Assembly (NCBI GenBank): GCA_000002445.1
Contig: CP000068.1
Span: 320,001-384,000 of the forward strand
Source of the DNA: Trypanosoma brucei
Taxonomy: Eukaryota
DNA: 64,000 nt
Reading direction: 5' to 3'
The notes beneath the pieces are model-generated. The model had not been told where the DNA came from. It saw nothing but the letters and a program-made list of their open reading frames with translations, and did no database searches. Numbering within the stretch: position 1 is the stretch's first letter; every line of letters begins with the position of its first letter. The position numbers were made by a program, and so were the translations under genes. Below, one piece after another: positions 5,019 through 35,017 of this stretch.

Positions 5019-5936
5019 ATGAAGCGTTTGTTGGACAGCGCGAAGCATCTTCTTAGAGGTGGGAGCCTGGGGTATCTAGCATCTGGTGAGCCTTACCACC
5101 CCTTTGGAGAAGACTTTGGACTAACTGTTTTCCCCGATTATATTCAGCTGAGGGAAAAATTGGCACTACGGAGTGGTTACGTAGATGTGTATACCCAGCG
5201 CTCAGCATCGATTAAGCTCAGTGATGGACGGTTTCAGCTGCCGCCACTACCGAAGCATTCGTTTCTTCCGCTTGTCGAGCGCCTGGAACAGGATGGGATT
5301 GTGCCGCGCGGGTGGCTGAATAACCAAACAGCAAATCTTTACGAGCCAGAGGACTTTATTAGGGCACATATCGATAATCTCTTCGTATATGATGATATAT
5401 TCGCCGTAATATCTCTTGGCGCAAACGCTCTTTTGAGGTTTGTACACGTGCAGAATGGCGAAGAATTGGATGTAGTAATACCAGACGGAAGTGTTTACAT
5501 TATGTCCGGTCCATCTCGGTATGTCTACTTCCACATGGTTCTTCCAGTTGAGGCCCAACGAGTGAGCATTGTGTTCAGGCGTTCTATTTTGAACTCTGAT
5601 GGAGGATTTCGTCCTGTGTCTACACCATTGGGGGATCTAATGCCTTACAGGTCAACTCAAATATTGAACACGTTGTACGCAAAGCAGATAGGAGGTGTTC
5701 GCGTAGCAGTTGACGACAAATACCTGGAAAAGGAGGAAATTGGGGCCTTTGACACTGGGAAGTGGGTTAAGGGCCTACACCCGTTGCGGGACTGGACATT
5801 GTTATCACAGCTGGATGAGGACGAGGCCCGAGTTCTGGAGTTGCGGGAGAAGCGCTACCTAGACGTGGACCTCAGTTGGAGGTTCACGGAGTTGAGGAAG
5901 CGATACAAGGAACTGGAGGACATGTTGCGTGTTTAG
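5019..5936 (+). CDS. AlkB-like 2-oxoglutarate/Fe(II)-dependent dioxygenase (ALKBH family)
   Basis: Motifs appear in the canonical order: 'NLYEPEDFIRAHIDN' (N-x-Y ... H-x-D), 'DGSVYIMSGPSRYVYFHMV' (second His) and 'RVSIVFRR' (R-x-S-x-x-F-R 2OG-binding motif). A T17 polypyrimidine tract lies upstream at 4929-4945. Confidence 0.65.
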   Translation: MKRLLDSAKHLLRGGSLGYLASGEPYHPFGEDFGLTVFPDYIQLREKLALRSGYVDVYTQRSASIKLSDGRFQLPPLPKHSFLPLVERLEQDGIVPRGWLNNQTANLYEPEDFIRAHIDNLFVYDDIFAVISLGANALLRFVHVQNGEELDVVIPDGSVYIMSGPSRYVYFHMVLPVEAQRVSIVFRRSILNSDGGFRPVSTPLGDLMPYRSTQILNTLYAKQIGGVRVAVDDKYLEKEEIGAFDTGKWVKGLHPLRDWTLLSQLDEDEARVLELREKRYLDVDLSWRFTELRKRYKELEDMLRV

Positions 5937-15392: not shown

Positions 15393-17162
15393 ATGCAACG
15401 AACGAAAAGTTTGCTTCATGTCCTGCTTGTGGTAGCACTAGTGCTCTTTTTATTGATTACTGAGGTTTCGGTTGCTGGAGGGGTTGTTGACTTGGGAAAT
15501 GAGGTACGGGAGGACACCATACCGCTACTTAATGACGACACATTCGACTCGTATGTTTTTTCAAAGGGATCTAATGATAAAGAGGGGCGAAAGAGAGGAC
15601 CTTGGCTCATATTCTTTTTTGCTCCATGGTGTGGTCACTGCAAGGCCGCCTTGCCCAAGTATGCGGATGCTAATTTGCAGTTGGCGAAACTTGGAGTTCA
15701 GCACGCGAGGTTTGCAACCGTCAATGCTGTAAAGAGTCCCGAATTGGCGTTGCGGTTCCGCGTAAAGGTATACCCGACGCTCATATATACCACTGGCAAG
15801 GCAGAAAACTGGCATGTGTACCGTGGTGCCCTCACTCCCGAGACTTTAATGAAGTTTGCGACCCAACTTCATTTAGCCGGCACTGTTGGGTCATTTGCCG
15901 ATTTGACATCAAGCCCCGATGAATTCGTTAGGGCGCATCGGCAGGATATGGGAAGGCGCGTGCCCATGTATGTTTATCTTCCTCCAACAGGTTCTCGAAG
16001 TGCCAATGCACCGCACCAGCGAGAAGAACTTGTTCCAGGGCAACATGGAGTGGGTGAAGGGGAAGGGCAACAGGGAGTGCAAGCGAATAATAGTAAGTCC
16101 ATCCATGAGGAGAAGCACATGCAGAAACAAGATCGGCTTTCTGACGCGCGCGAGGCGCGGTGGAATGTTGCCGTGGACGCTGCTGCTTCGATGGAAAAGA
16201 TTCGGTTTGGTGTGATATATGGTGATGACGTGCCATCTGCTTGGGCAGAGACGGGGATAACGCCATATATTGCCGTTCTCGAGGCCGCACAGCGGTGTAA
16301 AGGCAGTGGGCCCGATGGCGCACTTGTGCTTGTTGATTCTGACGCATACAAACAACCACAATGTTACGAAGGTCCGTGGTTTGAGGAGTCCGTCAATATC
16401 CCTCAAAAGAGCGGGGCGGAGAGCGTGACCCCGCTGCTTCACCCATCCTTCATAGCCTTCTTCATGTTAAACGGCCTTCATGCAGTGGAACGAGCTTCGT
16501 CATCGCTTCTATCAGCCGTTACCACCACGAACCATCACTATTTGGGCCTCCTTATCACGAATGGCCCTATTACACAAACTGACACTAATATGCTTCCAGC
16601 TCTGCGTGAGGTGGTGCAAGAACGAAACGAAGCTCGCCGTGCGGTCGCTGTGGGGCTTGAACCTCAGCGGAGGGTCTCGTTGGCGTACGTTGATGGTCGC
16701 ACTCACGAGGCGTGGCGTACGCAATACAAAGTGAAGCTGGAAGAACTCCCCGCCTTCGTGGTTGTGGACCCGCGGCGGAACAAGGTATACCGCTTGCGCA
16801 GGCACACTCCTCACTTCGAGGTAATTAAATTCTTCTTGCCGTGGCCGCGTGGGGGCGAGCAACAGTCAGTCATCGTTTCCTTCATTGCTGATGTCGAACG
16901 TGGGGTCGCGGTTGGTGAAAAGATGACATTTGTCGGGGAGGTTGCAGAGCATCTGCTGCGACTTCCGGGAGTGGAGTTTCTCTACGAGGTCCTCGAGTTC
17001 GAAGACAGTCTACTTGTGGTTGTTGTGCTCGCCCTCTTTGTGTTTGCGATCGTACTCCTCATTGTACTCGTCGTAGAGCCGGTGTTTGAGCGGCGTGCGG
17101 ATGAAAGGATGACGGGGTACGGGGAAAGGGACACTTCTGCAGTTGAAAAGAAGAGGAACTAA
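15393..17162 (+). CDS. Thioredoxin-domain (PDI-like, single 'WCGHC' site) type I membrane protein
   Basis: N-terminal signal peptide ('LLHVLLVVALVLFLLITEVSVAGG'). Thioredoxin-fold active site 'FFFAPWCGHCKAALPKY'. C-terminal transmembrane helix ('LLVVVVLALFVFAIVLLIVLVV') followed by a short charged tail. Confidence 0.75.
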   Translation: MQRTKSLLHVLLVVALVLFLLITEVSVAGGVVDLGNEVREDTIPLLNDDTFDSYVFSKGSNDKEGRKRGPWLIFFFAPWCGHCKAALPKYADANLQLAKLGVQHARFATVNAVKSPELALRFRVKVYPTLIYTTGKAENWHVYRGALTPETLMKFATQLHLAGTVGSFADLTSSPDEFVRAHRQDMGRRVPMYVYLPPTGSRSANAPHQREELVPGQHGVGEGEGQQGVQANNSKSIHEEKHMQKQDRLSDAREARWNVAVDAAASMEKIRFGVIYGDDVPSAWAETGITPYIAVLEAAQRCKGSGPDGALVLVDSDAYKQPQCYEGPWFEESVNIPQKSGAESVTPLLHPSFIAFFMLNGLHAVERASSSLLSAVTTTNHHYLGLLITNGPITQTDTNMLPALREVVQERNEARRAVAVGLEPQRRVSLAYVDGRTHEAWRTQYKVKLEELPAFVVVDPRRNKVYRLRRHTPHFEVIKFFLPWPRGGEQQSVIVSFIADVERGVAVGEKMTFVGEVAEHLLRLPGVEFLYEVLEFEDSLLVVVVLALFVFAIVLLIVLVVEPVFERRADERMTGYGERDTSAVEKKRN

Positions 17163-18272: not shown

Positions 18273-18729
18273 GTTGGTGCGTGTGTCTGCCGAAATGGAC
18301 ACCATGGGGGGGGGGTAGAAACCCAATACAGTATATGTTTTCTCAGGTGGACGAGCGAATATTGAACGGCGGGATGGAAAGGAAGGAAGAAGACCGCGGA
18401 GTGGTTACTGACTCTTACGTTTATTTGTTACTTCCTCATTGTATGTGATCGTGTTGTTGTCGTTATTTTACACTTTGCTGCGTTTGACTTCATAGTTCTT
18501 GCGGAAGTGTTGCGGAAGAGGGAGGGGATGCTTCACTTGCCGCCATTTTCTCGCTGCAGTTGAGAGCTTGTTGTTCTTCATCTGTCGTGTTGTGGCAAGA
18601 CCGTCGTTACTATATCATTTTCTCCCTTTCCTTCTTTTTTCCTTTCTTTTTCCTTTTCCAACTATTTTACCTTTTTTCTTTTTTGTGGGATCTCCCTATC
18701 ATCGGACTTGTGTATCTGCACTGAGCAAG

Positions 18730-19323
18730 ATGTCTATGGCCTACGTAATGGGAAAAGAGCAAGAGGAGGTTCTGCCATACCGTATTATGCGTCTCAACCG
18801 TGCTCCAGCCGTTGGTCCCGTTGCTCGTAAAGAGGACAATGAATCTACCCACAGTTCTTGCGGGTACGACAGCAGCCCCGCTACATTGGAGTCTGAACGA
18901 CAGTATCAAATAGAAGGCGAAGGCCAAGAATGTGCGAGTTGCACCGCTTGCAGCGGTAAAGTTTATTTGCATGATAAAATTACCGACGATATAGTTCCTG
19001 TTATGGCAACGACAACAAAACCGTCAGTGACGACCACCTCTCCGCCTGCGCATCGTTTGCGCAGAGGTCGTGGCCAAGCTATTGTTCGTGCCGCAACTGA
19101 TCATTTGAAAGGAGGAGGGGTTCTCGTTGAAGATGCTCCGGAACTTATTTATGCTGGCCGGCGGGCCCCACGGGGTTACTGTGCGGCTGCTGCTCAACAT
19201 GTGCAACTCTTCGCCACACCGACGTCCCCATCCGAAACACCGGCGGATATATTTTGGGCAAAAGTCAAGTCGTCTCGACAGTCCCGCCTCGCTATGCTGC
19301 GTGGCAGTGGTCCCCTGTGGTGA
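18730..19323 (+). CDS. hypothetical protein (about 198 aa)
   Basis: The six-frame ORF starts at 18499, but 18590-18700 is a CT-rich tract read through as 'FLLFSFLFPFP'. The in-frame ATG at 18730 ('MSMAYVMGKEQEEV') is the more plausible start. No domain recognised. Confidence 0.35.
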   Translation: MSMAYVMGKEQEEVLPYRIMRLNRAPAVGPVARKEDNESTHSSCGYDSSPATLESERQYQIEGEGQECASCTACSGKVYLHDKITDDIVPVMATTTKPSVTTTSPPAHRLRRGRGQAIVRAATDHLKGGGVLVEDAPELIYAGRRAPRGYCAAAAQHVQLFATPTSPSETPADIFWAKVKSSRQSRLAMLRGSGPLW

Positions 19324-20219: not shown

Positions 20220-21032
20220 ATGGCCAGTAGCACGGATTCACCCCCTCCACGTGAGGTATTTCACGGGCCTCGCTCCATTAGCGCATCATCGAATCGTGCG
20301 CCATTATTTATTGTAAAAAATGGTACGTCGCGACACCAGTCATTGTCGCCACCGCCCACATGCGGCTCTCCGCTGTCAAACCCCGAGTGCGGTGATGTAA
20401 GCTGTAGAAAATTATATGGGCTCTCATCTACTGATTGCTCTAATTACCCAAAGAGTGAGTGTTACAGTAACTTCAGTGTTCCCTCTGGGTCTTCAAACAC
20501 ATGCCGTCACGAGCATTTCAAACCACCCGGCAGAAAGAGTTCTTTTCTTGATCGTGTGAAGGCTTTTCTGACTCCGTCGGGCCACCCAACGGTGCATTCA
20601 CAAATCATTAAACCGTCTGAACCCTTTGCTGAGGACTCTCCGGAGGATGTTGTGGTCTTCAATTCTGAAGCTGCAAAGGGTGGAAAGAGCGGTAAAAAGC
20701 AAGTCAGTGGCTCTTCCAGCGGAAGGGATGCCGGCTTTGATGTTAGGACGTCCTTCGAACCGACTCACATGTTTAAGGAGGAGTGGGAGGAGAGGCCTTA
20801 TGTGTCACACGACCATGTGCAGGCTGACGGGCAACATAAAATGCTTTATTTTTCTCTGGGAGATGGACACGTAAGAAAATTGCTCCGTGAAGAGGCAAAA
20901 TGTCGCAGACGTCTCGTGGAGGAAGGCATGACTGTGATGCGGGACATTGGCAGAACATATGTAGCGATGTCTCGTAGTGTCGCTGCTGAGGCATCGGCGG
21001 GTTTATTGGCGGACAGACATCGGGGAAAATGA
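20220..21032 (+). CDS. hypothetical protein (270 aa), Ser/Cys-rich N-terminal half
   Basis: + strand ORF preceded by a purine-rich tract. No recognisable domain. Overlapping ORFs 20626..20874 + and 20773..21219 - were rejected. Confidence 0.4.
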   Translation: MASSTDSPPPREVFHGPRSISASSNRAPLFIVKNGTSRHQSLSPPPTCGSPLSNPECGDVSCRKLYGLSSTDCSNYPKSECYSNFSVPSGSSNTCRHEHFKPPGRKSSFLDRVKAFLTPSGHPTVHSQIIKPSEPFAEDSPEDVVVFNSEAAKGGKSGKKQVSGSSSGRDAGFDVRTSFEPTHMFKEEWEERPYVSHDHVQADGQHKMLYFSLGDGHVRKLLREEAKCRRRLVEEGMTVMRDIGRTYVAMSRSVAAEASAGLLADRHRGK

Positions 21033-23348: not shown

Positions 23349-24818
23349 ATGTCTGTCAGTTTTTCCACTCTGATTCAGCGGTCCCGCCCCTCTTCAAACC
23401 ATGCAACCACTAAACTTCTCAGCAATGTCCTTGCAAAGATTCCCCCAACGACACTCAGCACAGTTGGTAGCGGCGTGCGAGTGGCATGCGAGGAGAATCC
23501 CATCGCGTCTCTCGCTACTGTTGGTGTATGGTTGGATGCGGGAACTCGTCATGAACCTGCGCAATACGCCGGCACTGCGCGAGTCTTGCAAAAGTGTGGG
23601 TTTCTTGGTACTTCCAACCAAACCGCAGCACAAATCGCCGCAGCGGTGGACGAACTCGGTGGGCAGCTAACAGCAAACGTTGGCCGCGAGCACACACATT
23701 TGTATATGCGTGTCGCCCGCGAAGATACGGAGCGTGCTGTGTCTCTCCTGGCGGATGTGGTACGCAATGCCCGTTTGAGCGATGAGGATGTGGAGGTGGC
23801 GAAACAGGCGGTGCTACGCGATCAACATGACTTTGAACAGCGGCCAGATGACATTTGCATGGATAATCTTCACCGTTGTGCCTTCGACAGCACAACACAT
23901 GGGCCTGGTACACCGCTGTACGGCACAGAGGTCGGGACGACGCGTCTCAGCAATGCGCAGCTAAGAGAGTACCGTGACAAGATGCTTAGCGCCGGCCGCG
24001 TGGTGGTCGTGGGGAGCGGAGCTGTGAACCATACCGCTTTGGAACGGGCTGCGACCAGCGCGTTCGGGGACCTGCAGAAGGGAACTGTAACACTCGCCGG
24101 AGTTCCCGAAGCCCGGTTTGTGGGAGGAGAGTACAAACTGTGGAACTTGCGTTACAAGACTGTCCACATTGGATGGGCTTTTGAAACCTGTGGCGCAGCA
24201 TGCGAGGACTCCCTTCCGCTTGCACTCGCCTGTGAAGTTCCCGGTCCGTTCCACCGTTCCCAACATGAACTTGGACAGCATGCCATGCATCGTGTCCTAA
24301 AAACTTTCTCTTCGCTGGATCACAGCACTCCTACCAACACCCACTTCAACGAGAAGTGTATTGAAATTGCGAACCCTTTTCTGCACCAGTACAAAGACAC
24401 GGGGTTATGCGGAATGTATGTTGTGGGGCGGCCGGCTCAGGCGGGTCCTGGAGACGGCACGGCAATGATTGAAGTGTTTCAATACACCATCGCGGAATGG
24501 TGCCGCATCTGCCAGAAGATACTCCATGAACAGGAACTTGCTCAGGCCAAGGTGAACCTCAAGTCCCAACTGCTCTTCAACATGGACGGCAGCTCAAACT
24601 CTGCGGAGGATATTGGTCGGCAGGTACTTCACTATGGGCGCCGCATTCCGCTGGAGGAAATGTACGCTCGTATCGATGATGTGACACCAACAAATGTACA
24701 GGAGGTGCTTCAGCACTACTTCTACGGGCGGAAACCGGTGTACAGTTATCTTGGTTACTGTGCTAACATTCCAGGTTATGACTGGACACAACACTGGTCC
24801 TACAAGTACTGGTATTAA
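23349..24818 (+). CDS. M16 (insulinase/pitrilysin) family protein lacking the HxxEH zinc site; mitochondrial processing peptidase alpha-subunit / bc1-core-like
   Basis: M16 N-terminal domain signature region ('ASLATVGVWLDAGTRHEPAQYAGTARVLQKCGFLGTSN') with no inverted zinc motif. The M16 C-terminal domain is present. The N-terminus is Ser/Arg-rich and presequence-like ('MSVSFSTLIQRSRPSSNHATTKLL'). Confidence 0.65.
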   Translation: MSVSFSTLIQRSRPSSNHATTKLLSNVLAKIPPTTLSTVGSGVRVACEENPIASLATVGVWLDAGTRHEPAQYAGTARVLQKCGFLGTSNQTAAQIAAAVDELGGQLTANVGREHTHLYMRVAREDTERAVSLLADVVRNARLSDEDVEVAKQAVLRDQHDFEQRPDDICMDNLHRCAFDSTTHGPGTPLYGTEVGTTRLSNAQLREYRDKMLSAGRVVVVGSGAVNHTALERAATSAFGDLQKGTVTLAGVPEARFVGGEYKLWNLRYKTVHIGWAFETCGAACEDSLPLALACEVPGPFHRSQHELGQHAMHRVLKTFSSLDHSTPTNTHFNEKCIEIANPFLHQYKDTGLCGMYVVGRPAQAGPGDGTAMIEVFQYTIAEWCRICQKILHEQELAQAKVNLKSQLLFNMDGSSNSAEDIGRQVLHYGRRIPLEEMYARIDDVTPTNVQEVLQHYFYGRKPVYSYLGYCANIPGYDWTQHWSYKYWY

Positions 24819-26243: not shown

Positions 26244-28991
26244 ATGTCTGCAATCAAAGAACTTGTCGAAAGGAAGGTTAAACGAGGCCCGTATGCACAC
26301 CATGAGCTTATCATATGCCCAGGCTATTCTAATACGGGCAATGCAAGCACTAACACGAAGGGAAGTGCCGCTGCTTCCGATACCCGCAGCAACAGTCTCC
26401 CAGGTGTGGGTTCAAAGGGACATCGCTGTTGGTTATGCGCCTCTTTGGTAAAACCGATCGAACCGCAGGAGGTGCTGCTCTGTTTTCGATGCCTTCGCGT
26501 AGCTTTTCTTGACATAATTATGCCTCTCGTTGACAGCCCGGAGAGGCGGAAAGCTGATGCCAAGTTTATTTCGAAGATTAGCCGAGTAAAAGACACTGAA
26601 GGGACGACCCCGTTAGTGCCCAAGCTTCCAACTGTGGTGTCAGCGACCCCCCCAGCGGCAAATGAGGTACAATCCACGAATCACGTATCCCAGTCGAGGT
26701 CCACATTGCCATCCGATCCGTCCGGTCGCACTCAGTTGGCCAATGATAGCGGTCTTGGACGAGGTGTTGATTCCCACCGGTGTAGCAGCGCCTGGGCGCA
26801 CCGCAGATGCATTGAAGTGGGGGACCAAGGAACCCCTGCGGGCAATGGCCACGATGAGCTAACTGTCAAGTGTCCTGTTTGCCACGCTACGTGCAGCGCG
26901 ACTGACAAGCGACTAACACGTTGTTTGGATGGCAAAACGGTGCACCTCATTTGGGTTTGTTCCATGTGCAACACGACCAATACACAAAATAGTGATGAAT
27001 GTCATAGCTGCAAGGCGCCATTTGTGTGGCCGTGTTTGCAATGCGGTCTCACGCAGGAATCACCGTGCTGTGGAGATGAGCTTCGCATGTGTGTTGAATG
27101 TGAGGCTCTGAACACACCAGCAGATATACTTGCGTCACTGAAGCGAGCGTGTCTGGGCGGGGAGGGGGGCTATGCGGAAACGGATGGGGATCTCGGGTTG
27201 GATGACGAGGGAAATGATGGTACGGCGGGCGACGCGGATCTGGTGGGTTCGGTGTTTGGTGTGAATGACCTCGACACCGTAGCAGAGAAGGCTCGCCAGC
27301 GGGAGATTGTGGAGGGTCGTGCTCGGCTTCAGCGGCGTATGCGCCGGCTCGGTGTGGAAGCAAATGTTCAAGAATCCGATGGGAACTGCCTGTTCCGTTC
27401 GCTTGCAACTCAACTACTCGGTGACCCCGGTGCTCACATGACAATTCGCCGACTCGTGGTGGGTTACATGAAGGTTCGACAAGAGAGTTACAAGATTCTA
27501 TTCGATGGTGAGGAGGAGTGGAGCAATTACATATCTAACATGTACTGTAGTGGTTCGTGGGGTGATGAGCTTTGCCTCAATGCCGCGTGTCGGTGCTTCC
27601 GTGTGAATATTCATGTCATTACCAGCGCTGCCTCGGGGTGGCATTTGGTGTTCCAGTGTGATGATTTGCAGGACTCTGCAACAGCGCCGTATGGGGACTC
27701 CGGTCAAGGTAGGCTATTCGAAACAGCAGGATCGATTTGCCTTTTTCTTAATTACATTGCGCCTGTGCACTACGACGACGTGCCGGTGTTCCGGTCGCAG
27801 GTTATTTCATTGAATGCAAAGCTCACGGAGCAGCTCCAATATATGCTGGCTGAGGAGGGCCGCTCGCGTAGCCGCAGGGATGACGCGAGAAGGAGTGGAG
27901 CTGTCCGAGTCGGACAATTACAAAGTTGTCCATCAATAGGGGGAGAAGGACAGCCACTTCAAAAACTTGAGGAGCAGGGACAACGTTGTGCAAAACAGCA
28001 GCTAGAAAGCGATGAAAACAGTGCATGTTGTGTGGATGGAAAGGTGCAACAGCGAATGGATGCAAAACTACCACTACAGCTAAGTGGAGAGCAGCGACAG
28101 AAGACGGATGAAAAATACCTGACAGATACGTGTAGGGATCGACCGCGGTTAATAAATGAAGGATCGCCTCGGCCAGCCACTGGACACCCTCATCGGGCAT
28201 GCAACGATCACACTGTTCGCCAGATGAATACACACAAGCAGTGGCGAACGGGTGAGGAAATGTCACGGGATGTGGATGAGGGACGGTTGTGGTTGGCGAA
28301 CTCGGAAACCCTATCTCAAGGAACTGGGGACCGACAGAGAGGAATGGGTGAGCACCCCAAGCGCCTCATGAACGAAGAAATTATGCGCCAGGTGAATGGG
28401 CAGCAGCAGCAGCAGTGGGTGAATGAGGGGCACCGGCGACCACTGGATGAAAAATACCTGACAGATACGTGTAGGGATCGACCGCGGTTAATGAATGAAG
28501 GATCGCCTCGGCCAGCCACTGGACACCCTCATCGGGCATGCAACGATCACACTGTTCGTCAGATGAACACACACAAGCAGTGGCGAACGAGTGAGGAAAT
28601 GTCACGGGATGTGGATGAGGGACGGTTGTGGCGAATGAATCCACTCTCACTGCATCGGGGTGGTGAGGTTCAACAACCGGACCATTCCAGAGATCACCAG
28701 CCGCGCGCGCACGGGCTCCCGCAGCGAGCAGGCCGTCTGCATGATCCTCACACGCCCCGGGAGCAGTCGGTTAGTGGTCAGCAGCACCGGCAGTGGGTTT
28801 TGCCACCCCCTGCACCAGGCTGTAACAATGAGTTCACATTGCCCATTCCCAGTCGCCCCAATACCATGCGTCAGTTTCGAGAGAGTAGGCCATCAACGTT
28901 ATCTTCTGACTCGGCAGTAGCTTCCACGGGGTTATTCCCTAGACCTAACGGACAGAACTGGCCACTGGGAGATTTGCGAGGCCCTCATTAG
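26244..28991 (+). CDS. OTU-domain cysteine protease (deubiquitinase-like) with N-terminal RanBP2-type zinc fingers and a duplicated C-terminal segment
   Basis: OTU catalytic motifs 'DGNCLFRSLATQLLG' (Cys) and '...IAPVHYDDV' (His). Upstream, 'WVCSMCNTTNTQNSDECHSC' and 'WPCLQCGLTQESPCCGDELRMC' fit W-x-C-x2-C-x3-N-x6-C-x2-C. The C-terminal Gln/Arg/His-rich region is low-complexity. Confidence 0.8.
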   Translation: MSAIKELVERKVKRGPYAHHELIICPGYSNTGNASTNTKGSAAASDTRSNSLPGVGSKGHRCWLCASLVKPIEPQEVLLCFRCLRVAFLDIIMPLVDSPERRKADAKFISKISRVKDTEGTTPLVPKLPTVVSATPPAANEVQSTNHVSQSRSTLPSDPSGRTQLANDSGLGRGVDSHRCSSAWAHRRCIEVGDQGTPAGNGHDELTVKCPVCHATCSATDKRLTRCLDGKTVHLIWVCSMCNTTNTQNSDECHSCKAPFVWPCLQCGLTQESPCCGDELRMCVECEALNTPADILASLKRACLGGEGGYAETDGDLGLDDEGNDGTAGDADLVGSVFGVNDLDTVAEKARQREIVEGRARLQRRMRRLGVEANVQESDGNCLFRSLATQLLGDPGAHMTIRRLVVGYMKVRQESYKILFDGEEEWSNYISNMYCSGSWGDELCLNAACRCFRVNIHVITSAASGWHLVFQCDDLQDSATAPYGDSGQGRLFETAGSICLFLNYIAPVHYDDVPVFRSQVISLNAKLTEQLQYMLAEEGRSRSRRDDARRSGAVRVGQLQSCPSIGGEGQPLQKLEEQGQRCAKQQLESDENSACCVDGKVQQRMDAKLPLQLSGEQRQKTDEKYLTDTCRDRPRLINEGSPRPATGHPHRACNDHTVRQMNTHKQWRTGEEMSRDVDEGRLWLANSETLSQGTGDRQRGMGEHPKRLMNEEIMRQVNGQQQQQWVNEGHRRPLDEKYLTDTCRDRPRLMNEGSPRPATGHPHRACNDHTVRQMNTHKQWRTSEEMSRDVDEGRLWRMNPLSLHRGGEVQQPDHSRDHQPRAHGLPQRAGRLHDPHTPREQSVSGQQHRQWVLPPPAPGCNNEFTLPIPSRPNTMRQFRESRPSTLSSDSAVASTGLFPRPNGQNWPLGDLRGPH
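28107..28631 (+). repeat. Internal in-frame duplication inside the OTU gene: two about 186-nt copies (about 95% identical) offset by 339 nt
   Basis: 'gatgaaaaatacctgacagatacgtgtagggatcgaccgcggttaa[t/g]aaatgaaggatcgcctcggccagccactgg...' occurs at 28107 and again at 28446. Both encode 'DEKYLTDTCRDRPRLxNEGSPRPATGHPHRACNDHTVRQMNTHKQWRTxEEMSRDVDEGRLW'. Confidence 0.9.
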
Positions 28992-30970
28992 TGCTTCATC
29001 AGGCACAACATGCATGGCTATCCTGAAGATGATCCCGTTTAAGTCGCAGGGTGAGGAAAATTAAACCTTCTGCGGTAAGGGTTTTGTGCCGGCATGTTGG
29101 ATTTGGAGGAAAAAAAATGATCAATATTTACTTGTGTGTATGTGTGCCTGAGGAGTGTGCTGGTGTTGGAAGGGAGGAGGAGGGGGAGGTGTTTGCTTAC
29201 CAATGAAGTTAGCAGTTTTTTTTTTACTTTTTTCATTTTTTTTGTTTGATCTATCACATAATGCAGTCAAAGGCATGCGTGGATGGTGCCTGTTAATTCA
29301 ACGCTTGTTAGGTGGACAGGATATGATCTCTCCACATGAATGCACACACGGAACAGCTGGCCCAAGAAAAATGCAGAGTAAGGTTATGTGTATATATATA
29401 TGTATGTGTGCGTGCTGGTAATCCTATATAAATAATAATTACCTAAGCGAGACTAGCCGGAACGGGATAACTGTTTGGCCCTCGGGAGCCCCTGACGCAC
29501 TGGTAGCGGCACCGTTTCCGCTTTATGTTCATGTGCGTGCAAAAGGGGGAGGGGAAAGAAATGTGGGGATATACCTGACCTCTGTGGTGTGTTGGTTAGG
29601 TTCTTCCACTTTACTTTTATCTCCTTTTTTTGTTTTTCAAAAGCCTTCTCTGTTAAAAGTTCACCCTTTAAAACCTTTCTTTTAGTCGCTTCATTTTGCT
29701 CCTTCATTTTGCGGACTTGTTTTTTGTGTCTTCTTACCTCTAATTTTTCATTTTTTGGGATCGGGATTGCGCTGTACCTCAGTTGTGGCACTCGTCATTT
29801 GTAGTGTATTTGCTTGTACATACATTACACTATGTATTGCGCCGTATGCATTAAACTGTGAGGTTTTGTGTGTGTGTGTGTATGTTATGTGTTTGTGCTT
29901 GCGTCTGCTTTGAAGGAATGCCGGAAAAATCGGGGAGTTGGAGTAGGATGAGAGTCAGCAGGGGAATTTGGGCGTTACGTTCTTAAATCCTTTTGGCAGT
30001 TGTTACTGGTGCGCTCTTCCAACAAGCACTACTTCGACCTGAAGGGAGGGGGAGGGAAAAGAAAAAAAAGGCACGCGTGGGTGAATGAAGGGATGGATGA
30101 GGGAGAAGAAAGTTGTACGCGGAGAAGATGTGTTTCTTTTTGTTACATGGAGGCTCTGGATGCTTTTCCCGCTCTGTGTGAAATGAAGGTCTCTTCCTTC
30201 CCTCCTTCGCTCCCATTCTCTTTCCTCCCCCCCCTACCCAAGTGAACTGCCCTTTCACTTCTGTTTGTGACCTTTCCAATCTGATCCGCCGATGTATGCT
30301 TCACAACTTTACAACTTCTCTCAATTTCTTTGTTTTGCTTTGTGCTGCATTCACCCAATTTCACTTGTAGGGCTTTCGTTTCTGATAGGCGTTGATTGCT
30401 CGTATGGTTTTTTTTGTGTTTGTGTGTTTTTATGTTTGATGTTCTTTCCCCTGCTGTTTTGTTATTTTTGTGCCCCTCCTTTCCCCCTCCTCTTTGTTTT
30501 GTCTTGTTTCTCACGAGGTGGAGTTGGTCGATGTTTGTATATCATGCGGCACATCGGTTTTTACCTTGTCGCCGCACGTTTCGTTCCCCTTGGCATATTT
30601 TTTAAAATTCACACATGCGTTTTGAGTATTGACGTGATCTGTACACTACGCCTACCCATTGGCCTGTTTCAGCACTATTCTCTGCGGTTGTGCTGCGCTG
30701 GATAACGCTTTGTTTTCTTTATTTTAAAGCATAGGCGGTGAAATTGACATTTCTTCACCACAAAGAGAGCACGGGAAAACCGTAAACCCTGAAGTGACGG
30801 GAGCTCAAAGGAAGACATCGAAGAAGAAGGAGGGTGCGTGTGCGTGTGGGAAAAAGTTCAGTGAGTTTTTTTCTCCTTCTTATTTTACTTCCTTCTCAGC
30901 TAATCATAAACTGGCTGTTTCAGGAATACGAAGGGGAGGCGTTTGTGCACCTCGTACACCTTTTGCCACC

Positions 30971-31684
30971 ATGCTCGACACGAGTGGCAGCCCCGATGGG
31001 TTCGGTGATTACACGGCACCTTCCAAACGTGGTGTGCTGTTTTTTTCCACCGTGCCGCGAGACATGCGGCCGCAGGAGGTGGAGCGTCATTTCGGGCGAT
31101 TCGGCACCATCACACGTCGCAAGTTCACTCCGTTTCCAAGGAAGGAACGCCGACCCAATGGTCCACTCCTTCCTCTACAGTTCATGCGCGGGTACATTGA
31201 GTTCTCCAAGGCGGAGGATGCGGAATATGCGGCTGCTGCCATGAATGGAACCCCTGTGGACTGCAAGCGGCGGCGTCGCTGCAGTGGACAGCTGTGGACT
31301 GTCAAATATGAGAAAGGTTTCACATGGGATGTGTTGCTGGAGGAACGGGAGGCCGCTGTGCGTTCGAGACGTCAGCGTGAGGTAGAGGCGAGAAGCCAAG
31401 AGAGGGAAATAAATGAGGCATTTCGTGCCGCTGTGGCGAAGCGACTCGCAAGTCGAGCAAAAAACAGGAAAGGGGACGGTGCCGCAAAGGTATCGACTGC
31501 AGGTGGTGGCGAAACGCTCGTAAACCGAGATGATAACTCGAAATGTAAGCGGGAGCCGGGCAATGATGATGTTGATGAGTCGCGGACGAAGCGCAAGAGA
31601 TCCCGGGTTGAGGCCACTTCATCGACCAGTGATGCCACAAATGCTTCCAAAGATTTAAAAAAGAAGAAAGTAAAAAAAAATTAA
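30971..31684 (+). CDS. ESF2/ABT1-family RNA-binding protein (pre-rRNA processing factor-like, RRM-like domain)
   Basis: 'GVLFFSTVPRDMRPQEVERHFGRFGTITRRKF...GYIEFSKAEDAEYAAAAMNGTPVD' resembles the ESF2/ABT1 RRM-like core. The C-terminal tail is basic. The six-frame ORF starts at 30794, but a pyrimidine tract at about 30868-30900 makes the ATG at 30971 more likely. Confidence 0.5.
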   Translation: MLDTSGSPDGFGDYTAPSKRGVLFFSTVPRDMRPQEVERHFGRFGTITRRKFTPFPRKERRPNGPLLPLQFMRGYIEFSKAEDAEYAAAAMNGTPVDCKRRRRCSGQLWTVKYEKGFTWDVLLEEREAAVRSRRQREVEARSQEREINEAFRAAVAKRLASRAKNRKGDGAAKVSTAGGGETLVNRDDNSKCKREPGNDDVDESRTKRKRSRVEATSSTSDATNASKDLKKKKVKKN

Positions 31685-32617
31685 GAACTGACGCCGGTGG
31701 AGGGCTCGTCGCCTGCAGTTACGGGAAGTACTTTGATAGGGAATGGGAAGAAGAGGTGAGGATGTTGTGTACGGGATAAGTGAATGAGTTCCGCGCGTCT
31801 GCTCGCTGTTGTTACTTCGTTGTTTCCCCCTTATTTTCATTTCTGGTACTTTTTATTTCGTTGCTGCTTGTTGAAGTGACGGTGATTGTTTATGCTGTTG
31901 GAACGTTATTCGATGTCGTATTTTTGCATCACAGAGTTGGGGTTCGCATTCCTTTCTTAGTTGGGGATGGCGTAGCGGCACCGTGATGGCGGAATGGAGT
32001 GAGAAGAGGGCGTTGTAAACGATTAAGAAGCAAAGGAGAGGGTCGCATGGGCCACCATAGCAGCCTTGCGTTGGGTATAGTGAATACGCCCACATAAGTC
32101 TACGCAGTGTGCGGTACCCTTTTCTTTTCCCTTCCAGTAAGTAAGACATATATTTATTTGTTTATGTCGTTGCACAGTTTGTATTTTTTGTCTTCTTTCT
32201 CCATCTGTCCGCTCCGGCAGTGATGATGAAACCCTCAGTGTTTTAAGCGTTAGCACCTCGACTAAGTCGCGTAAGGAGTCTCTGGCCTTTCTATCTTATC
32301 CGCCTAGATTTGTTCCTTCTTCCTAAGTCGATATTTATAGAAATATTTTTCTACATAACGTTAGGTGGGGTGCAGGAGAAAGGCGGAGAAGAGTAAAAGG
32401 TAACAGTGAAAGGAGGAGAACCTCAGTCAAAGAGAGAATATATATATATATATATATATATATTCTTTTATTTTTGTCACCTAGCAGTTTACATCAAGTC
32501 ACGTTCCGCGTACTTCGTTTCACTATTGCGTTGCCCCAATCATCACTATTTTTTTACGCGTCGTTGATATCATTTAGTTTACGTACAAAGGTCACATCAA
32601 ATTCACTGTCCTTTACT

Positions 32618-35017
32618 ATGGCCACGGCTGTTGTTGGGAAGAAAAAGGGAGGTGCAACTGTCGATCTCAAACAGCTACAGGAACCTGACTTTTGGAAGAC
32701 GCGTAATGCCATATTTGACGAATTGTATGCCGCCCAGCAGGAGAAATATAAATCCATGCAGAGCCCCATTTCCATCACCCTCAATGATGGAAAGCAGCTC
32801 CCTGCCACGAGCTGGCTCACAACGCCTATTGACATTGCGAAGAAGTTGTCCAATTCGCTCGCGGAAAGGGTTGTTGCTGCGCGTGTAAATGAAGAAATTT
32901 GGGACCTTACTCGACCTTTTGAGGGCGATGCCACACTTGAGCTGCTTGATTGGGACGATGCTGATGCTCGCCACGTTTTTTGGCACAGTTCCTCCCACGT
33001 GCTTGGTTATGCGCTGGAGCGAGTGTTCCAAACCCGCCTGTCCGTTGGCCCTGCACTTGAGGAGGGTGGTTTCTTCTATGAGGGTGAGACGAACCGCCCG
33101 GTGACGGAAGCGGATTACACCACGATAGAGACAGCGATGCAGGAGTTGGTCAAGATGAAGGTTCCATTTCAGCGCTTAACCGTAAAGAAGGAGGACGCCC
33201 TTCGACTCTTCCAGTACACAGAGTTTAAGAGCAAGATACTCGCAAGTAAGGTTCCTGAGAATGGCACTTGCACGGTGTATCGCTGCGGGAACCTTATTGA
33301 CCCCTGCCGCGGTCCTCACCTCCCCGACACCGGGCGCGTGAAGTCATTCTCCTTAACAAAGAACTCCTCTTCGTACTTTGAGGGGAAGGCGGAGAATGCT
33401 GTGTTACAGCGTGTCTATGGAATTTCATTCCCAAAGCAGACGATGTTAACGGAGTGGAAAAAACTTCAAGAAGAGGCCGCCCGTCGCGACCACCGCACTA
33501 TTGGCCGGCATCAACAGCTCTTCCATTTCCATGAGGCCTCTCCCGGTAACGCTTTCTGGCTCCCGCATGGTGCACGCATCTACAACACACTAATTGAGTT
33601 CCAGCGCAAGCAATATCGCCGACGGGGCTTCGAGGAGGTAGTGTCTCCTAACATGTTCTCATCCAGGTTGTGGATGGTCTCCGGTCACTGGGATAAGTAT
33701 GCTGACAATATGTTCCTCATCAATGTTGAAAAGGAGGACCACGGAATGAAGCCAATGAACTGTCCTGGACACTGCCTCATGTTTGCCATGCAGCCCCACT
33801 CGTACAGGGAGCTTCCTATTCGTTATGCTGATTTTGGGGTTCTGCATCGAAATGAGCTCAGCGGTGCTCTTACAGGGCTCACCCGAGTTCGTCGTTTTCA
33901 GCAGGATGATGCCCACATTTTCTGTCGGATGGATCAGGTGAAGGATGAGATCCACAGCGCTCTCATTTTTCTCAAGGATGTTTATGACGTCCTCGGCTTT
34001 AAGTTCTTTTTGAAGCACTCCACGCGGCCAGAAAACAAGCTCGGTTCAGATGAGATGTGGGATGAGGCGGAGTCCTACTTGCAGGCAGCCCTCAACAGCT
34101 TCTGCGGGATCCCCGACGAGCTTCCTGACCCATTTAACAAGGGTTCCACCTTTGTATACGATGGCCGCAAGGAGAGCGTTAAAAAACTTCGGGCAATGCT
34201 GAAGAAGCGTGGAGACAAGAAAAACGACGAGAACTCACCCGCAGATGATGTGTGGCCGGGCCCAACACATGAGGATGCATGGGAGGAAAACACCGGTGAC
34301 GGTGCTTTCTATGGGCCAAAGATTGACATCGTTGTTGAAGATGCTTTGCGCCGACGGCATCAATGTGCGACCATCCAGCTTGACTTCAACTTACCGAAGC
34401 GGTTTGGTCTCAAGTACACTCTGCCGAGCAATGCAGCGGGCGATGATGGCCCAGCGCCAAAGGCCACCGAGTGCCACAAAGATCCGAACGCGGAATTAAA
34501 AGCTGACAAACCGGAGGGGAAGGTGGAGGCTGCTGCGGGAGCACCGAAGTCGTCCTACGAGAAGGCTGCACACGAACTCAACATTGACCAGCGTTTGGAT
34601 GCCAATCAGGCTCGACCTGTGATGATTCACCGTGCCATTTTCGGTTCTTTGGAGCGCTGCATTGCGATCCTCTGCGAGCACTACGGCGGTGACTGGCCCT
34701 TCTGGCTGAGCCCGCGGCAAGTTATTGTCGTGCCTGTTTCGCTCGAGAACGCTGCGTACGCACAAACGGTGCGCGACACGTTTTTTGCTGCAGGCTTCTT
34801 TGCTGATGTGGACAACGGCACTGCGACGTTGGAGAAGAAGATTCGGAATGCGGAACTGGCACGGTACAACTTCATACTTGTTGTGGGACAAGCTGAGCAA
34901 GAGGGGCAGAGTGTCAATGTGAGGACTCGTGACAATCGCCGGCACGGCACGAAAACGTTGGATGAGGCATTACAATGGTTGCGAGAATTGGCCGATAAAT
35001 ATGATCCGTCCTTCTAA
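32618..35017 (+). CDS. ThrRS: Threonyl-tRNA synthetase (class II aaRS)
   Basis: TGS-like N-terminus. The second additional domain carries the editing-site motif 'HSSSHVLGYALE' / 'CRGPHLPDTGRV'. Class II motif 2 'GLTRVRRFQQDDAHIF' and motif 3 region 'PVMIHRAIFGSLERCIAIL' are present, followed by a C-terminal anticodon-binding domain. The start is set at ATG 32618 ('MATAVVGKKKGG') after the pyrimidine tract, giving 799 aa. Confidence 0.93.
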   Translation: MATAVVGKKKGGATVDLKQLQEPDFWKTRNAIFDELYAAQQEKYKSMQSPISITLNDGKQLPATSWLTTPIDIAKKLSNSLAERVVAARVNEEIWDLTRPFEGDATLELLDWDDADARHVFWHSSSHVLGYALERVFQTRLSVGPALEEGGFFYEGETNRPVTEADYTTIETAMQELVKMKVPFQRLTVKKEDALRLFQYTEFKSKILASKVPENGTCTVYRCGNLIDPCRGPHLPDTGRVKSFSLTKNSSSYFEGKAENAVLQRVYGISFPKQTMLTEWKKLQEEAARRDHRTIGRHQQLFHFHEASPGNAFWLPHGARIYNTLIEFQRKQYRRRGFEEVVSPNMFSSRLWMVSGHWDKYADNMFLINVEKEDHGMKPMNCPGHCLMFAMQPHSYRELPIRYADFGVLHRNELSGALTGLTRVRRFQQDDAHIFCRMDQVKDEIHSALIFLKDVYDVLGFKFFLKHSTRPENKLGSDEMWDEAESYLQAALNSFCGIPDELPDPFNKGSTFVYDGRKESVKKLRAMLKKRGDKKNDENSPADDVWPGPTHEDAWEENTGDGAFYGPKIDIVVEDALRRRHQCATIQLDFNLPKRFGLKYTLPSNAAGDDGPAPKATECHKDPNAELKADKPEGKVEAAAGAPKSSYEKAAHELNIDQRLDANQARPVMIHRAIFGSLERCIAILCEHYGGDWPFWLSPRQVIVVPVSLENAAYAQTVRDTFFAAGFFADVDNGTATLEKKIRNAELARYNFILVVGQAEQEGQSVNVRTRDNRRHGTKTLDEALQWLRELADKYDPSF

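What the first reader, a model, noticed from the sequence alone, without database searches (positions are those of the whole stretch)
26244..28991. OTU deubiquitinase-like protein fused to RanBP2-type zinc fingers, with a recently duplicated 62-aa C-terminal module
The catalytic OTU core (Cys in 'DGNCLFRS', His in 'VHYDDV') is preceded by two Cys4 modules that fit the RanBP2/NZF zinc-finger pattern ('WVCSMCNTTNTQNSDECHSC'). NZF fingers bind ubiquitin, so this may be an OTU enzyme with built-in ubiquitin-binding fingers. The C-terminal Q/R/H-rich tail carries a 95%-identical duplication at 28107 and 28446, implying a very recent in-frame duplication. The same region produces two antisense ORFs with identical starts ('MAGRGDPSFINRGRSLHVSVRYFSS') that I consider artefacts.
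Basis: partly seen in the sequence, partly recalled or inferred. Interest (0 to 1): 0.5.

Follow-up and report, generated by a model that had tools for sequence, protein, structure and literature searches.

The report
Annotated trypanosome OTU deubiquitinase with zinc fingers
This is an already annotated Trypanosoma brucei gene for an OTU-type ubiquitin-removing protease with one RanBP2-like zinc finger that lacks the ubiquitin-binding signature, followed by a fast-evolving tail holding a real internal duplication; it is ordinary apart from small evolutionary details.

Summary
The ORF at 26244-28991 (+) is real. Its product is 100% identical to T. brucei brucei TREU927 XP_844781.1/Q57W52, annotated elsewhere as "OTU-like cysteine protease". 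The OTU call is solid: Pfam PF02338 scores 60.7 bits, D379/C382/H509 are invariant, and an AlphaFold model is closest to OTUD1/3/5.

Only one Cys4 module (W237-C256) is a RanBP2-fold finger. It fits the PROSITE spacing in 25 of 25 relatives, and its profile hits TAB3, TAB2, HOIP and NPL4 fingers. It scores below Pfam's cutoff and lacks the Thr-Phe/Tyr motif that defines ubiquitin-binding NZF fingers. The second module (W262-C286) has the wrong spacing and looks like a generic zinc ribbon.

Relatives in T. cruzi, Leishmania and others carry an extra canonical TF-bearing finger. In T. brucei it has decayed to a relic.

The 62-aa duplication is real: 187 nt, 183/187 identical, 339 nt apart, in frame. 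It occurs in three T. brucei-group genomes and not in T. congolense. Variant sites are swapped between copies among strains, and the flanks keep weak similarity. That pattern fits an older duplication homogenised by gene conversion.

The antisense ORFs are by-products of the duplication.

Interest is low.

The parts
26244..28991 (+). Complete CDS (915 aa + stop) of the T. brucei OTU-like cysteine protease, probably Tb927.5.1070
   Evidence: ORF. It is 100% identical over 915 aa to XP_844781.1/Q57W52 of T. b. brucei TREU927. The N-terminus aligns from Met1 with orthologues. The gene ID is inferred from its neighbours: the M16 protein at 23349-24818 fits Tb927.5.1060 (cp1, PMC3673636), and the ThrRS at 32474-35017 fits Tb927.5.1090 (PMC6025875).
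25985..26120 (+). Polypyrimidine-rich tract followed by AG dinucleotides upstream of the ATG; likely trans-splicing signal (inferred)
   Evidence: Read directly from the sequence. The function is inferred from general knowledge of trypanosomatid mRNA processing and was not tested.
26427..26492 (+). N-terminal Cys4 finger CWLC-x14-CFRC (C62, C65, C80, C83), followed by a conserved helical segment
   Evidence: The four Cys are invariant in 10 of 10 orthologues and conserved in more distant kinetoplastid-like sequences. AF2 pLDDT is 68-85 for res about 65-115. There is no Pfam match.
26784..26852 (+). Relic of the ancestral canonical RanBP2/NZF-like finger (ZnF1): SSAWAHRRCIEVGDQGTPAGNGH keeps only the Trp and one Cys
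   Evidence: It aligns to FWTCPQCTFVNSDSERFCGACQF of T. cruzi and WNCPLCTFLNAAVARECEAC of Leishmania. The ZnF1 profile from orthologues hits RanBP2 at 5.9e-11, plus YAF2, RYBP, TAB3, HOIP and NPL4. The PROSITE-like pattern is absent here in T. brucei, T. congolense and T. vivax.
26871..26945 (+). Conserved C-x2-C-x3-C-x9-C-x6-H segment (C210, C213, C217, C227, H234); probable extra zinc site
   Evidence: These residues are invariant in 25 of 25 aligned homologues. The segment is part of the compact 96-residue AF2 model with mean pLDDT 91. Zinc binding is inferred.
26952..27011 (+). ZnF2: RanBP2-fold zinc finger WVCSMCNTTNTQNSDECHSC (W237, C239, C242, N246, C253, C256), lacking the NZF Thr-Phe motif
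27027..27119 (+). ZnF3: W-x-C-x2-C-x15-C-x2-C-x3-NTP zinc ribbon (C264, C267, C283, C286); not RanBP2 spacing
   Evidence: The Cys are invariant. There is no RanBP Pfam hit. The profile finds KAT6 PHD and ribosomal L37Ae/L43 ribbons, with NPL4 only at E = 1.5.
27255..27788 (+). OTU catalytic domain (res about 338-515). D379-G-N-C382 lies at 27378-27389 and V-H509-Y-D-D at 27765-27779. A variable loop sits at res about 473-497
   Evidence: Pfam PF02338 E = 2.6e-16, 60.7 bits. PDB sequence hits are OTUD3, OTUD1 and OTUD5. AF2 pLDDT is 75-88, and Foldseek returns OTUD1 at 2.8e-7 (TMt 0.78) and OTUD3 at 7.1e-7 (TMt 0.79). D379, C382 and H509 are invariant.
27837..28988 (+). C-terminal R/Q/G/P-rich tail (res 532-915), not conserved outside the T. 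brucei group; predicted disordered (inferred)
   Evidence: It has no alignable counterpart in orthologues. Composition is R 12.5%, Q 9.4%, G 8.3%, P 8.1%. The open frame is non-random. Five of the 7 aa differences between TREU927 and T. b. gambiense fall here.
28106..28292 (+). Duplicated block, copy 1 (62-aa module, res 622-683)
28293..28444 (+). Spacer between the copies. It keeps weak similarity to the stretch after copy 2 (28391-28420 vs 28769-28798, 83%; VNGQQQQQWV vs VSGQQHRQWV)
   Evidence: Shuffle tests reached the observed score 0 of 2000 times at both the protein and DNA level.
28445..28631 (+). Duplicated block, copy 2 (62-aa module, res 735-796)
27959..28189 (-). Antisense open frame 1 (GTG start at 28180), by-product of copy 1; not a gene
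   Evidence: It is identical to the other antisense frame only within the duplicated block.
28316..28528 (-). Antisense open frame 2 (GTG start at 28519), by-product of copy 2; not a gene

Best explanation
The locus is the T. brucei orthologue of a kinetoplastid-wide deubiquitinase. Its catalytic domain belongs to the OTUD1/3/5-like branch of the OTU cysteine proteases (nucleophile C382, general base H509, acidic D379 and/or D511). It most likely cleaves ubiquitin isopeptide bonds (inferred). Upstream lies a cysteine-rich targeting region. This holds an N-terminal CWLC/CFRC finger and a compact module of about 96 residues built from a C3CH segment, one RanBP2-fold finger (ZnF2) and one longer zinc ribbon (ZnF3). 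ZnF2 lacks the Thr-Phe/Tyr and hydrophobic residues that NZF fingers use to bind ubiquitin's Ile44 patch. It also lacks the N-aromatic-x-x-R motif that, from memory, ZRANB2-type RNA-binding fingers carry (this feature was not checked against a source here). Its conserved surface is acidic (N-T-x-D-G-D). It is therefore more likely a structural or partner-binding element than a canonical ubiquitin receptor (inferred). The ancestral protein also had a canonical TF/TY-bearing RanBP2/NZF finger (ZnF1). That finger survives in T. cruzi, Leishmania and others but has decayed in African trypanosomes. Downstream, the T. brucei lineage acquired a long, poorly constrained, probably disordered tail. An intragenic tandem duplication arose there after the split from T. 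congolense. Its first 187 nt are kept 98-100% identical by gene conversion or unequal recombination between the copies, while the rest has diverged.
For: Identity: the product is 100% identical to the TREU927 protein, and orthologues occur across Trypanosoma, Leishmania, Porcisia, Leptomonas, Novymonas, Angomonas and Phytomonas. OTU: Pfam 60.7 bits; PDB sequence and profile hits only to OTUD3/1/5; Foldseek ranks OTUD1/3/5 top, with A20 and OTUB far weaker; D379, C382 and H509 are invariant. Zinc module: all Cys/His are invariant in 25 of 25; AF2 mean pLDDT is 91 and pTM 0.78; ZnF2 is RanBP2-like by profile and superposition; ZnF3 is not. NZF criteria are taken from PMC11372445, and the sequence shows NT and C-H-S-C. 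ZnF1 is present in orthologues and is a relic here. Duplication: it sits at the same position in TREU927, DAL972 and T. equiperdum. The four variable sites read ACTG/GTCA (927), GTCA/GCTA (T. equiperdum) and GTCA/GTCA (gambiense). The C-T pair thus sits in copy 1 in one strain and in copy 2 in another. Residual flank similarity is significant against shuffles. T. congolense instead has an unrelated array of seven 25-aa tandem repeats. [quoted passage not shown] The orthology rests only on the description and chromosome.
Against: No enzymatic, binding or localisation data for this protein were found in the searchable literature. The catalytic His is assigned from invariance and fold, because sequence alignments to solved OTUs stop before the variable loop. 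Non-canonical ubiquitin binding by ZnF2 or ZnF3 cannot be excluded. The gene-conversion inference rests on only four variable sites in three assemblies; assembly or haplotype mosaics could imitate it. The flank-similarity test used simple residue shuffles on a Q/CAG-rich stretch.
Confidence: 0.8

Rival explanations
1. One reading: a TRABID-like enzyme in which RanBP2/NZF fingers bind ubiquitin chains and feed them to the OTU domain.
For: The architecture resembles TRABID (fingers N-terminal to an OTU). ZnF2's profile hits true NZFs best (TAB3 at 5.4e-6, then TAB2, HOIP, NPL4). Orthologues outside African trypanosomes keep a TF/TY finger. In the most divergent homologue, P0028, ZnF2 itself reads C-TF-V-N.
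Against: In T. brucei no finger carries the TF/TY motif or the hydrophobic residue in the second CxxC. The TF finger is a relic here. The OTU domain is OTUD-type, not the A20/TRABID type. No AnkUBD or other TRABID feature was found by Pfam.
Confidence: 0.15
2. The duplication is one very recent event, and the few differences between copies are ordinary point mutations with no exchange between copies.
For: The copies are 97.9-100% identical with sharp boundaries. T. congolense has no counterpart.
Against: All three T. brucei-group genomes share it at the same position. The same C/T variants occur in copy 1 of TREU927 and copy 2 of T. equiperdum, and the gambiense copies are identical. A 187-nt unit is not a multiple of 3, yet the spacing is 339 nt, and the sequence after each copy keeps significant residual similarity. 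Both points suggest a larger, older unit.
Confidence: 0.2
3. The protein is a pseudo-enzyme or acts on a ubiquitin-like modifier rather than ubiquitin, with the zinc module and tail serving as a scaffold.
For: There is no biochemical evidence either way. Some OTU proteins cleave ISG15 or NEDD8, and viral OTUs appear among the fold hits.
Against: The catalytic D-G-N-C and H-Y-D motifs are invariant across the family. The closest sequence and fold relatives are OTUD1/3/5, which are known as active ubiquitin DUBs; 3tmp among the hits is DUBA/OTUD5 bound to ubiquitin aldehyde.
Confidence: 0.1
4. The repeat is an assembly artefact, or conversely the true gene has one copy.
For: A short-read Logan contig (L003, run ERR7929157) carries a single copy with an exact 339-nt deletion. 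It joins the upstream flank of copy 1 to the downstream flank of copy 2.
Against: Three independent genome assemblies have two copies with different variant patterns. A 187-nt near-identical repeat is just what a short-read de Bruijn assembly collapses.
Confidence: 0.03

Closest known systems
Human OTUD1 / OTUD3 / OTUD5 (DUBA), OTUD subfamily of OTU deubiquitinases (PDB 4bop, 4bou, 3tmp, 3pfy)
   Same: They are the best sequence and fold matches for the catalytic domain. They share the D-G-x-C-L-F-R catalytic Cys motif and the overall fold (TM 0.78-0.79 normalised to the target).
   Different: Identity is only about 17-21% in the structural alignment. The trypanosome domain has a lineage-variable loop before the His strand. 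The flanking domains differ: none of the zinc fingers or tail matched these solved OTUD chains, whose hits cover only the catalytic domain.
TRABID / ZRANB1 (three NZF fingers + AnkUBD + A20-like OTU)
   Same: The domain logic is the same: RanBP2-fold fingers N-terminal to an OTU protease. ZnF2 superposes on TRABID NZF1 at about 1.3 A over 26 residues.
   Different: The OTU domain belongs to a different branch. No AnkUBD was found. The T. brucei finger lacks the TF ubiquitin-binding motif that TRABID NZFs use. The resemblance is most likely convergent.
Leishmania orthologues: L. donovani 'Zn-finger in Ran binding protein and others/OTU-like cysteine protease' and, probably, L. mexicana DUB22 (LmxM.34.1390)
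   Same: They are orthologous over the N-finger, zinc module and OTU domain (32-35% identity, about 51-56% of the query covered). All conserved Cys/His and catalytic residues are shared.
   Different: Leishmania keeps the canonical TF-bearing RanBP2 finger (Pfam PF00641, 24.9 bits at res 185-211). It has a short tail without the 62-aa module. T. brucei has lost that finger and gained a 384-aa tail.
Non-ubiquitin-binding RanBP2-like fingers, e.g. the HOIP ZnF next to NZF1
   Same: These are RanBP2-fold fingers lacking the TF motif, thought to bind a protein partner rather than ubiquitin (PMC11372445). ZnF2 is the same sort of finger.
   Different: No partner or binding surface is known for the trypanosome finger. 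Its conserved N-T-x-D-G-D loop has no described counterpart.

Membership tests
OTU cysteine proteases (Pfam PF02338) | Match to the family HMM above the curated cutoff | tested here: met
   60.7 bits against a cutoff of 23.3, E = 2.6e-16, res 378-463.
OTU cysteine proteases (Pfam PF02338) | Catalytic Cys in the D-G-x-C motif and catalytic His, both conserved | tested here: met
   D379-G-N-C382 and H509 are invariant in 10 of 10 orthologues and near-invariant in 25. The Cys motif aligns with that of OTUD3/1/5.
OTU cysteine proteases (Pfam PF02338) | OTU fold | tested here: met
   AF2 pLDDT is 75-88 over the domain. Foldseek returns OTUD1 at 2.8e-7 and OTUD3 at 7.1e-7 with TMt 0.78-0.79.
OTU cysteine proteases (Pfam PF02338) | Isopeptidase activity on ubiquitin | not testable with these tools
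   Requires biochemistry. No published assay was found.
RanBP2-type zinc finger (Pfam PF00641 / PROSITE-style W-x-C-x(2,4)-C-x3-N-x6-C-x2-C) | Cys4 spacing with Trp before Cys1 and Asn between Cys2 and Cys3 | tested here: met
   Met for ZnF2 (res 237-256), invariant in 25 of 25. Not met for ZnF3, which has x15 spacing. The pattern itself is quoted from memory of PROSITE PS01358.
RanBP2-type zinc finger (Pfam PF00641 / PROSITE-style W-x-C-x(2,4)-C-x3-N-x6-C-x2-C) | Match to Pfam PF00641 above the curated cutoff | tested here: not met
   No hit on the whole protein at E <= 1. The isolated ZnF2 scores 12.8-17.2 bits against a cutoff of 27.
RanBP2-type zinc finger (Pfam PF00641 / PROSITE-style W-x-C-x(2,4)-C-x3-N-x6-C-x2-C) | Homology and fold similarity to solved RanBP2-type fingers | tested here: met
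NZF (Npl4-type, ubiquitin-binding subclass of RanBP2 fingers) | Thr-(Phe/Tyr) directly after Cys2 | tested here: not met
   ZnF2 has Asn-Thr. Orthologues have EN, RG, SA, GG and so on at that position. Definition from PMC11372445.
NZF (Npl4-type, ubiquitin-binding subclass of RanBP2 fingers) | Hydrophobic residue inside the second C-x-x-C | tested here: not met
   C-H-S-C in T. brucei.
NZF (Npl4-type, ubiquitin-binding subclass of RanBP2 fingers) | Binding to the Ile44 patch of ubiquitin | not testable with these tools
   Needs binding assays.
TRABID/ZRANB1-like DUBs | A20-like OTU domain plus AnkUBD | tested here: not met
   The closest folds are OTUD1/3/5; A20 appears only at E about 1e-3 with TMt 0.29. 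There is no ankyrin or AnkUBD Pfam hit.

The most novel reading that the evidence does not exclude
The kinetoplastid-specific zinc array (CWLC/CFxC finger, NZF-like ZnF1, and the compact C3CH + RanBP2-like + long-ribbon module) may be a previously undescribed substrate- or chain-recognition platform on an OTUD-type DUB, convergent with TRABID. African trypanosomes would then have re-targeted the enzyme by losing the ubiquitin-binding ZnF1 and gaining a long, repeat-prone disordered tail.
Probability: 0.2. Interest if true: 0.45.

Novelty: already known. Interest (0 to 1): 0.2.

Why it matters
It matters little beyond annotation. The gene is already in public databases as an OTU-like cysteine protease, and its Leishmania counterpart is already described as an OTU protease with a RanBP-type zinc finger. 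Three refinements come out of this work:

- In T. brucei the candidate ubiquitin-binding finger has been lost, so function should not be transferred uncritically from TRABID or from the Leishmania and T. cruzi orthologues.
- A confidently modelled three-site zinc module of unknown ligand is conserved across kinetoplastids and could be a tractable target for DUB biology in these parasites.
- The near-identity of the two tail modules reflects concerted evolution and possible copy-number polymorphism. That matters for read mapping, PCR design and dating, not for enzyme mechanism.

Tried and rejected
- **Whole-protein Pfam scan for zf-RanBP.** It gave no hit at E <= 1; only isolated fragments gave sub-threshold hits.
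- **Search with the 117-aa module plus spacer.** The 5.8-billion-protein index returned nothing. It did not even recover the source protein, so this negative is uninformative.
- **Tandem Repeats Finder.** It did not report the duplication, which has only 2 copies and diverged spacers. The repeat finder and blastn did.
- **Literature searches for a characterised T. brucei OTU enzyme, a 'hook complex' link or Tb927.5.1070.** They found nothing specific. The NCBI name 'Hook complex subunit' on the L. donovani orthologue could not be traced to any evidence and was not used.
- **Sequence alignment of the catalytic His to solved OTUs.** The alignments end before the variable loop, so the His assignment rests on invariance and fold.
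- **Self-BLASTP for tail repeats.** My row filter printed nothing. The T. congolense repeats were confirmed by regex instead.
- **RNA-binding (ZRANB2-like) or Ran-binding (Nup153/RanBP2-like) roles for ZnF2.** I rejected these as unlikely. The N-aromatic-x-x-R and L-V-x-N signatures, which I recall from the literature and did not test, are absent, and the loop is acidic.
- **Assembly artefact for the repeat.** I rejected this because three assemblies agree.
Full report
**Source and context.** The window is Trypanosoma brucei brucei TREU927 chromosome 5. The 915-aa product of ORF 26244-28991 (+) is identical at every residue to XP_844781.1/Q57W52. It differs at 2 residues from the T. equiperdum protein and at 7 from the T. 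b. gambiense protein. Every ORF of at least 200 aa that has a Pfam match lies on the + strand, and GC skew is positive in 61 of the 64 kb. This is the usual picture of a trypanosomatid polycistronic unit. The neighbours are an M16-family protein at 23349-24818, an RRM protein at 30794-31684 and threonyl-tRNA synthetase at 32474-35017. Published IDs are Tb927.5.1060 for the M16 core protein (PMC3673636) and Tb927.5.1090 for ThrRS (PMC6025875). The gene is therefore probably Tb927.5.1070 (inferred). A polypyrimidine tract with downstream AG precedes the ATG, and the N-terminus aligns with orthologues from Met1.

**Check of the observation.**
- The motifs are present.
- The direct repeat is 187 nt at 28106-28292 and 28445-28631, with 4 mismatches and 339-nt spacing.
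- The 62-aa modules begin at 28107 and 28446 and differ at two residues, I637/M750 and G670/S783.
- The window holds no further copy.
- The two antisense ORFs with identical GTG-initiated starts exist and coincide with the duplicated block. They are by-products.
- The long tail is truly coding. The chance of 384 stop-free codons is about 7e-8, and the other two sense frames hold 16 and 26 stops.

**OTU domain.** Pfam OTU matches at 60.7 bits against a cutoff of 23.3. The only significant PDB sequence relatives are OTUD3, OTUD1 and OTUD5. An AlphaFold2 model of residues 55-531 is confident over the catalytic domain (pLDDT 75-88). Foldseek ranks OTUD1 (2.8e-7, TM 0.78), OTUD3 and OTUD5 first, then viral OTUs, with A20, OTUB and Cezanne far behind. 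D379, C382 and H509 are invariant in all orthologues. The enzyme is thus an OTUD-type OTU with an intact active site. Activity itself is inferred.

**Zinc fingers.** Five elements can be distinguished.
1. **N-terminal finger.** A CWLC-x14-CFRC finger (C62, C65, C80, C83) is followed by conserved helices.
2. **ZnF1 relic.** This is the remnant of an ancestral finger.
3. **C3CH segment.** It reads C-x2-C-x3-C-x9-C-x6-H (C210-H234).
4. **ZnF2.** It reads WVCSMCNTTNTQNSDECHSC.
5. **ZnF3.** It reads W-x-C-x2-C-x15-C-x2-C-x3-NTP.

All these Cys/His residues are invariant in 25 aligned homologues. Residues 205-300 fold in AlphaFold2 as one compact unit (mean pLDDT 91, pTM 0.78).

**Are the fingers ubiquitin receptors?** NZF fingers are the RanBP2 subclass defined by four Cys, a Trp before Cys1, an Asn between Cys2 and Cys3, a Thr-(Phe/Tyr) motif, and a hydrophobic residue in the second CxxC. 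The last two features contact ubiquitin's Ile44 patch (PMC11372445). ZnF2 has Asn-Thr and C-H-S-C. Orthologues show EN, RG, SA or GG at the TF position. ZnF2 therefore fails the NZF test.

Most other kinetoplastid homologues carry an additional canonical finger, ZnF1. It reads W-x-C-P-x-C-T-[FY]-x-N-x6-C-x-A-C in T. cruzi, one of the two T. rangeli sequences, all Leishmania, Porcisia and several unnamed Logan sequences. Angomonas has S-F. The ZnF1 profile hits RanBP2 at 5.9e-11, plus the NZFs, and the sub-threshold Pfam zf-RanBP hits in orthologues fall on it.

In T. brucei this finger is reduced to SSAWAHRRCIEV..., keeping only the Trp and one Cys. T. congolense has nothing recognisable there, and T. 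vivax keeps a half-finger (C-TY-T-N...C). ZnF1 is also missing or decayed in T. conorhini and Phytomonas. The 'built-in ubiquitin-binding finger' idea is therefore plausible for T. cruzi and Leishmania. It is not supported for the T. brucei protein in this window.

**Tail and duplication.** After residue 531 the T. brucei protein has a 384-aa R/Q/G/P-rich tail with no counterpart in other genera. Five of the 7 residue differences between TREU927 and T. b. gambiense lie in it. T. congolense has an equally long tail, but it holds an unrelated array of seven 25-aa tandem repeats.

The T. brucei duplication sits at the same position in TREU927, T. b. gambiense DAL972 and T. equiperdum. It is therefore species-group-wide rather than strain-specific, and it post-dates the split from T. 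congolense.

At the four variable sites the copies read as follows.

| Genome | Copy 1 | Copy 2 |
|---|---|---|
| TREU927 | ACTG | GTCA |
| T. equiperdum | GTCA | GCTA |
| T. b. gambiense | GTCA | GTCA |

The C-T state at offsets 114/123 thus occurs in copy 1 in one genome and in copy 2 in another, and in gambiense the copies are identical. That is the signature of gene conversion or unequal exchange.

The block length (187 nt) is not a multiple of three, yet the spacing is 339 nt. The spacer keeps significant residual similarity to the stretch after copy 2. At the DNA level this is 83% over 30 nt. At the protein level VNGQQQQQWV matches VSGQQHRQWV. The observed score was reached in 0 of 2000 shuffles at both levels. 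The simplest reading is an older tandem duplication of a larger unit whose first 187 nt are being homogenised. High identity therefore does not date the event.

A short-read Logan contig (L003, run ERR7929157) has a single copy with a precise 339-nt deletion. This is either a collapsed repeat or a real single-copy allele, and I could not tell which.

**Comparison with what is known.** The gene is annotated in public databases as an OTU-like cysteine protease or OTU domain-containing protein. The L. donovani orthologue is named 'Zn-finger in Ran binding protein and others/OTU-like cysteine protease', and a T. cruzi fragment is called a 'RanBP2-type domain-containing protein'. [quoted passage not shown] It links the gene to antimony and pentamidine resistance and to miltefosine sensitivity (bioRxiv 10.1101/2025.06.16.659792). 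Orthology to our gene is likely but was not verified. The Damianou et al. DUB survey did not cover C85-family enzymes (PMC7319358). I found no biochemical study of the T. brucei protein. Functionally it resembles TRABID in layout only: the OTU branch differs, and the ubiquitin-binding motif is absent.

**Verdict.** This is a correctly spotted but ordinary, already annotated gene. The OTU assignment is firm. One finger is RanBP2-type but not an NZF, and the ubiquitin-binding inference does not hold for this species. The duplication is real but is better described as a concertedly evolving intragenic repeat than as a very recent event. Interest is low (0.2). The modest novelty lies in the lineage-specific loss of the NZF-like finger and in the conserved, uncharacterised three-site zinc module.

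Noticed in passing
window 45414-63602 (+): A 6062-aa ORF holds 11 tandem copies of a 1251-nt (417-aa) unit, 97-98% identical over the 300-nt reference block that the repeat finder compared, in a GC-rich stretch (0.57-0.59) with strong GC skew. Each unit matches Pfam FAZ1_cons (PF23398, 45 bits). It looks like a giant repetitive cytoskeletal (flagellum attachment zone-like) protein.
   Followed up: partly
L003 (Logan contig ERR7929157_10990) 907-1093, vs window 28106-28631: A short-read contig from another T. brucei-group sample has only one copy of the 187-nt block (variant state GCTA) with an exact 339-nt deletion. It is either a collapsed repeat or a genuine single-copy allele.
   Followed up: partly
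P0002 (T. congolense orthologue) residues 569-743: The tail holds seven tandem copies of a 25-aa unit (GDQLQRTY[SN]ERPPSRHSELG[HR]ASLH), unrelated to the T. brucei 62-aa module. The tail of this gene is repeat-prone in African trypanosomes.
   Followed up: partly
window 26784-26852 and orthologues P0003, P0002, P0007, P0022: The canonical TF/TY RanBP2 finger (ZnF1) is lost or decayed in T. brucei, T. congolense, T. vivax (half-finger), T. conorhini (deleted) and Phytomonas. It is intact in T. cruzi, Leishmania and other relatives.
   Followed up: yes
window 1-64000: All Pfam-supported ORFs lie on the + strand and GC skew is positive in 61 of the 64 kb, consistent with one polycistronic transcription unit. 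The unit includes a thioredoxin-glutaredoxin fusion (949-1617), an AAA ATPase (3036-4106), a 2OG-Fe(II) oxygenase (5019-5936), a thioredoxin-domain protein (15393-17162), a TPR protein (38389-40356) and ribosomal protein L2/L8 (42272-43054).
   Followed up: partly
window 10599-14546 (+): A 1315-aa ORF has no Pfam match at E <= 0.001. The ORFs at 18499-19323 and 20220-21032 also have none.
   Followed up: no
P0010 (L. donovani orthologue): One NCBI record names the orthologue 'Hook complex subunit'. No literature support for this name was found in the searchable library.
   Followed up: partly
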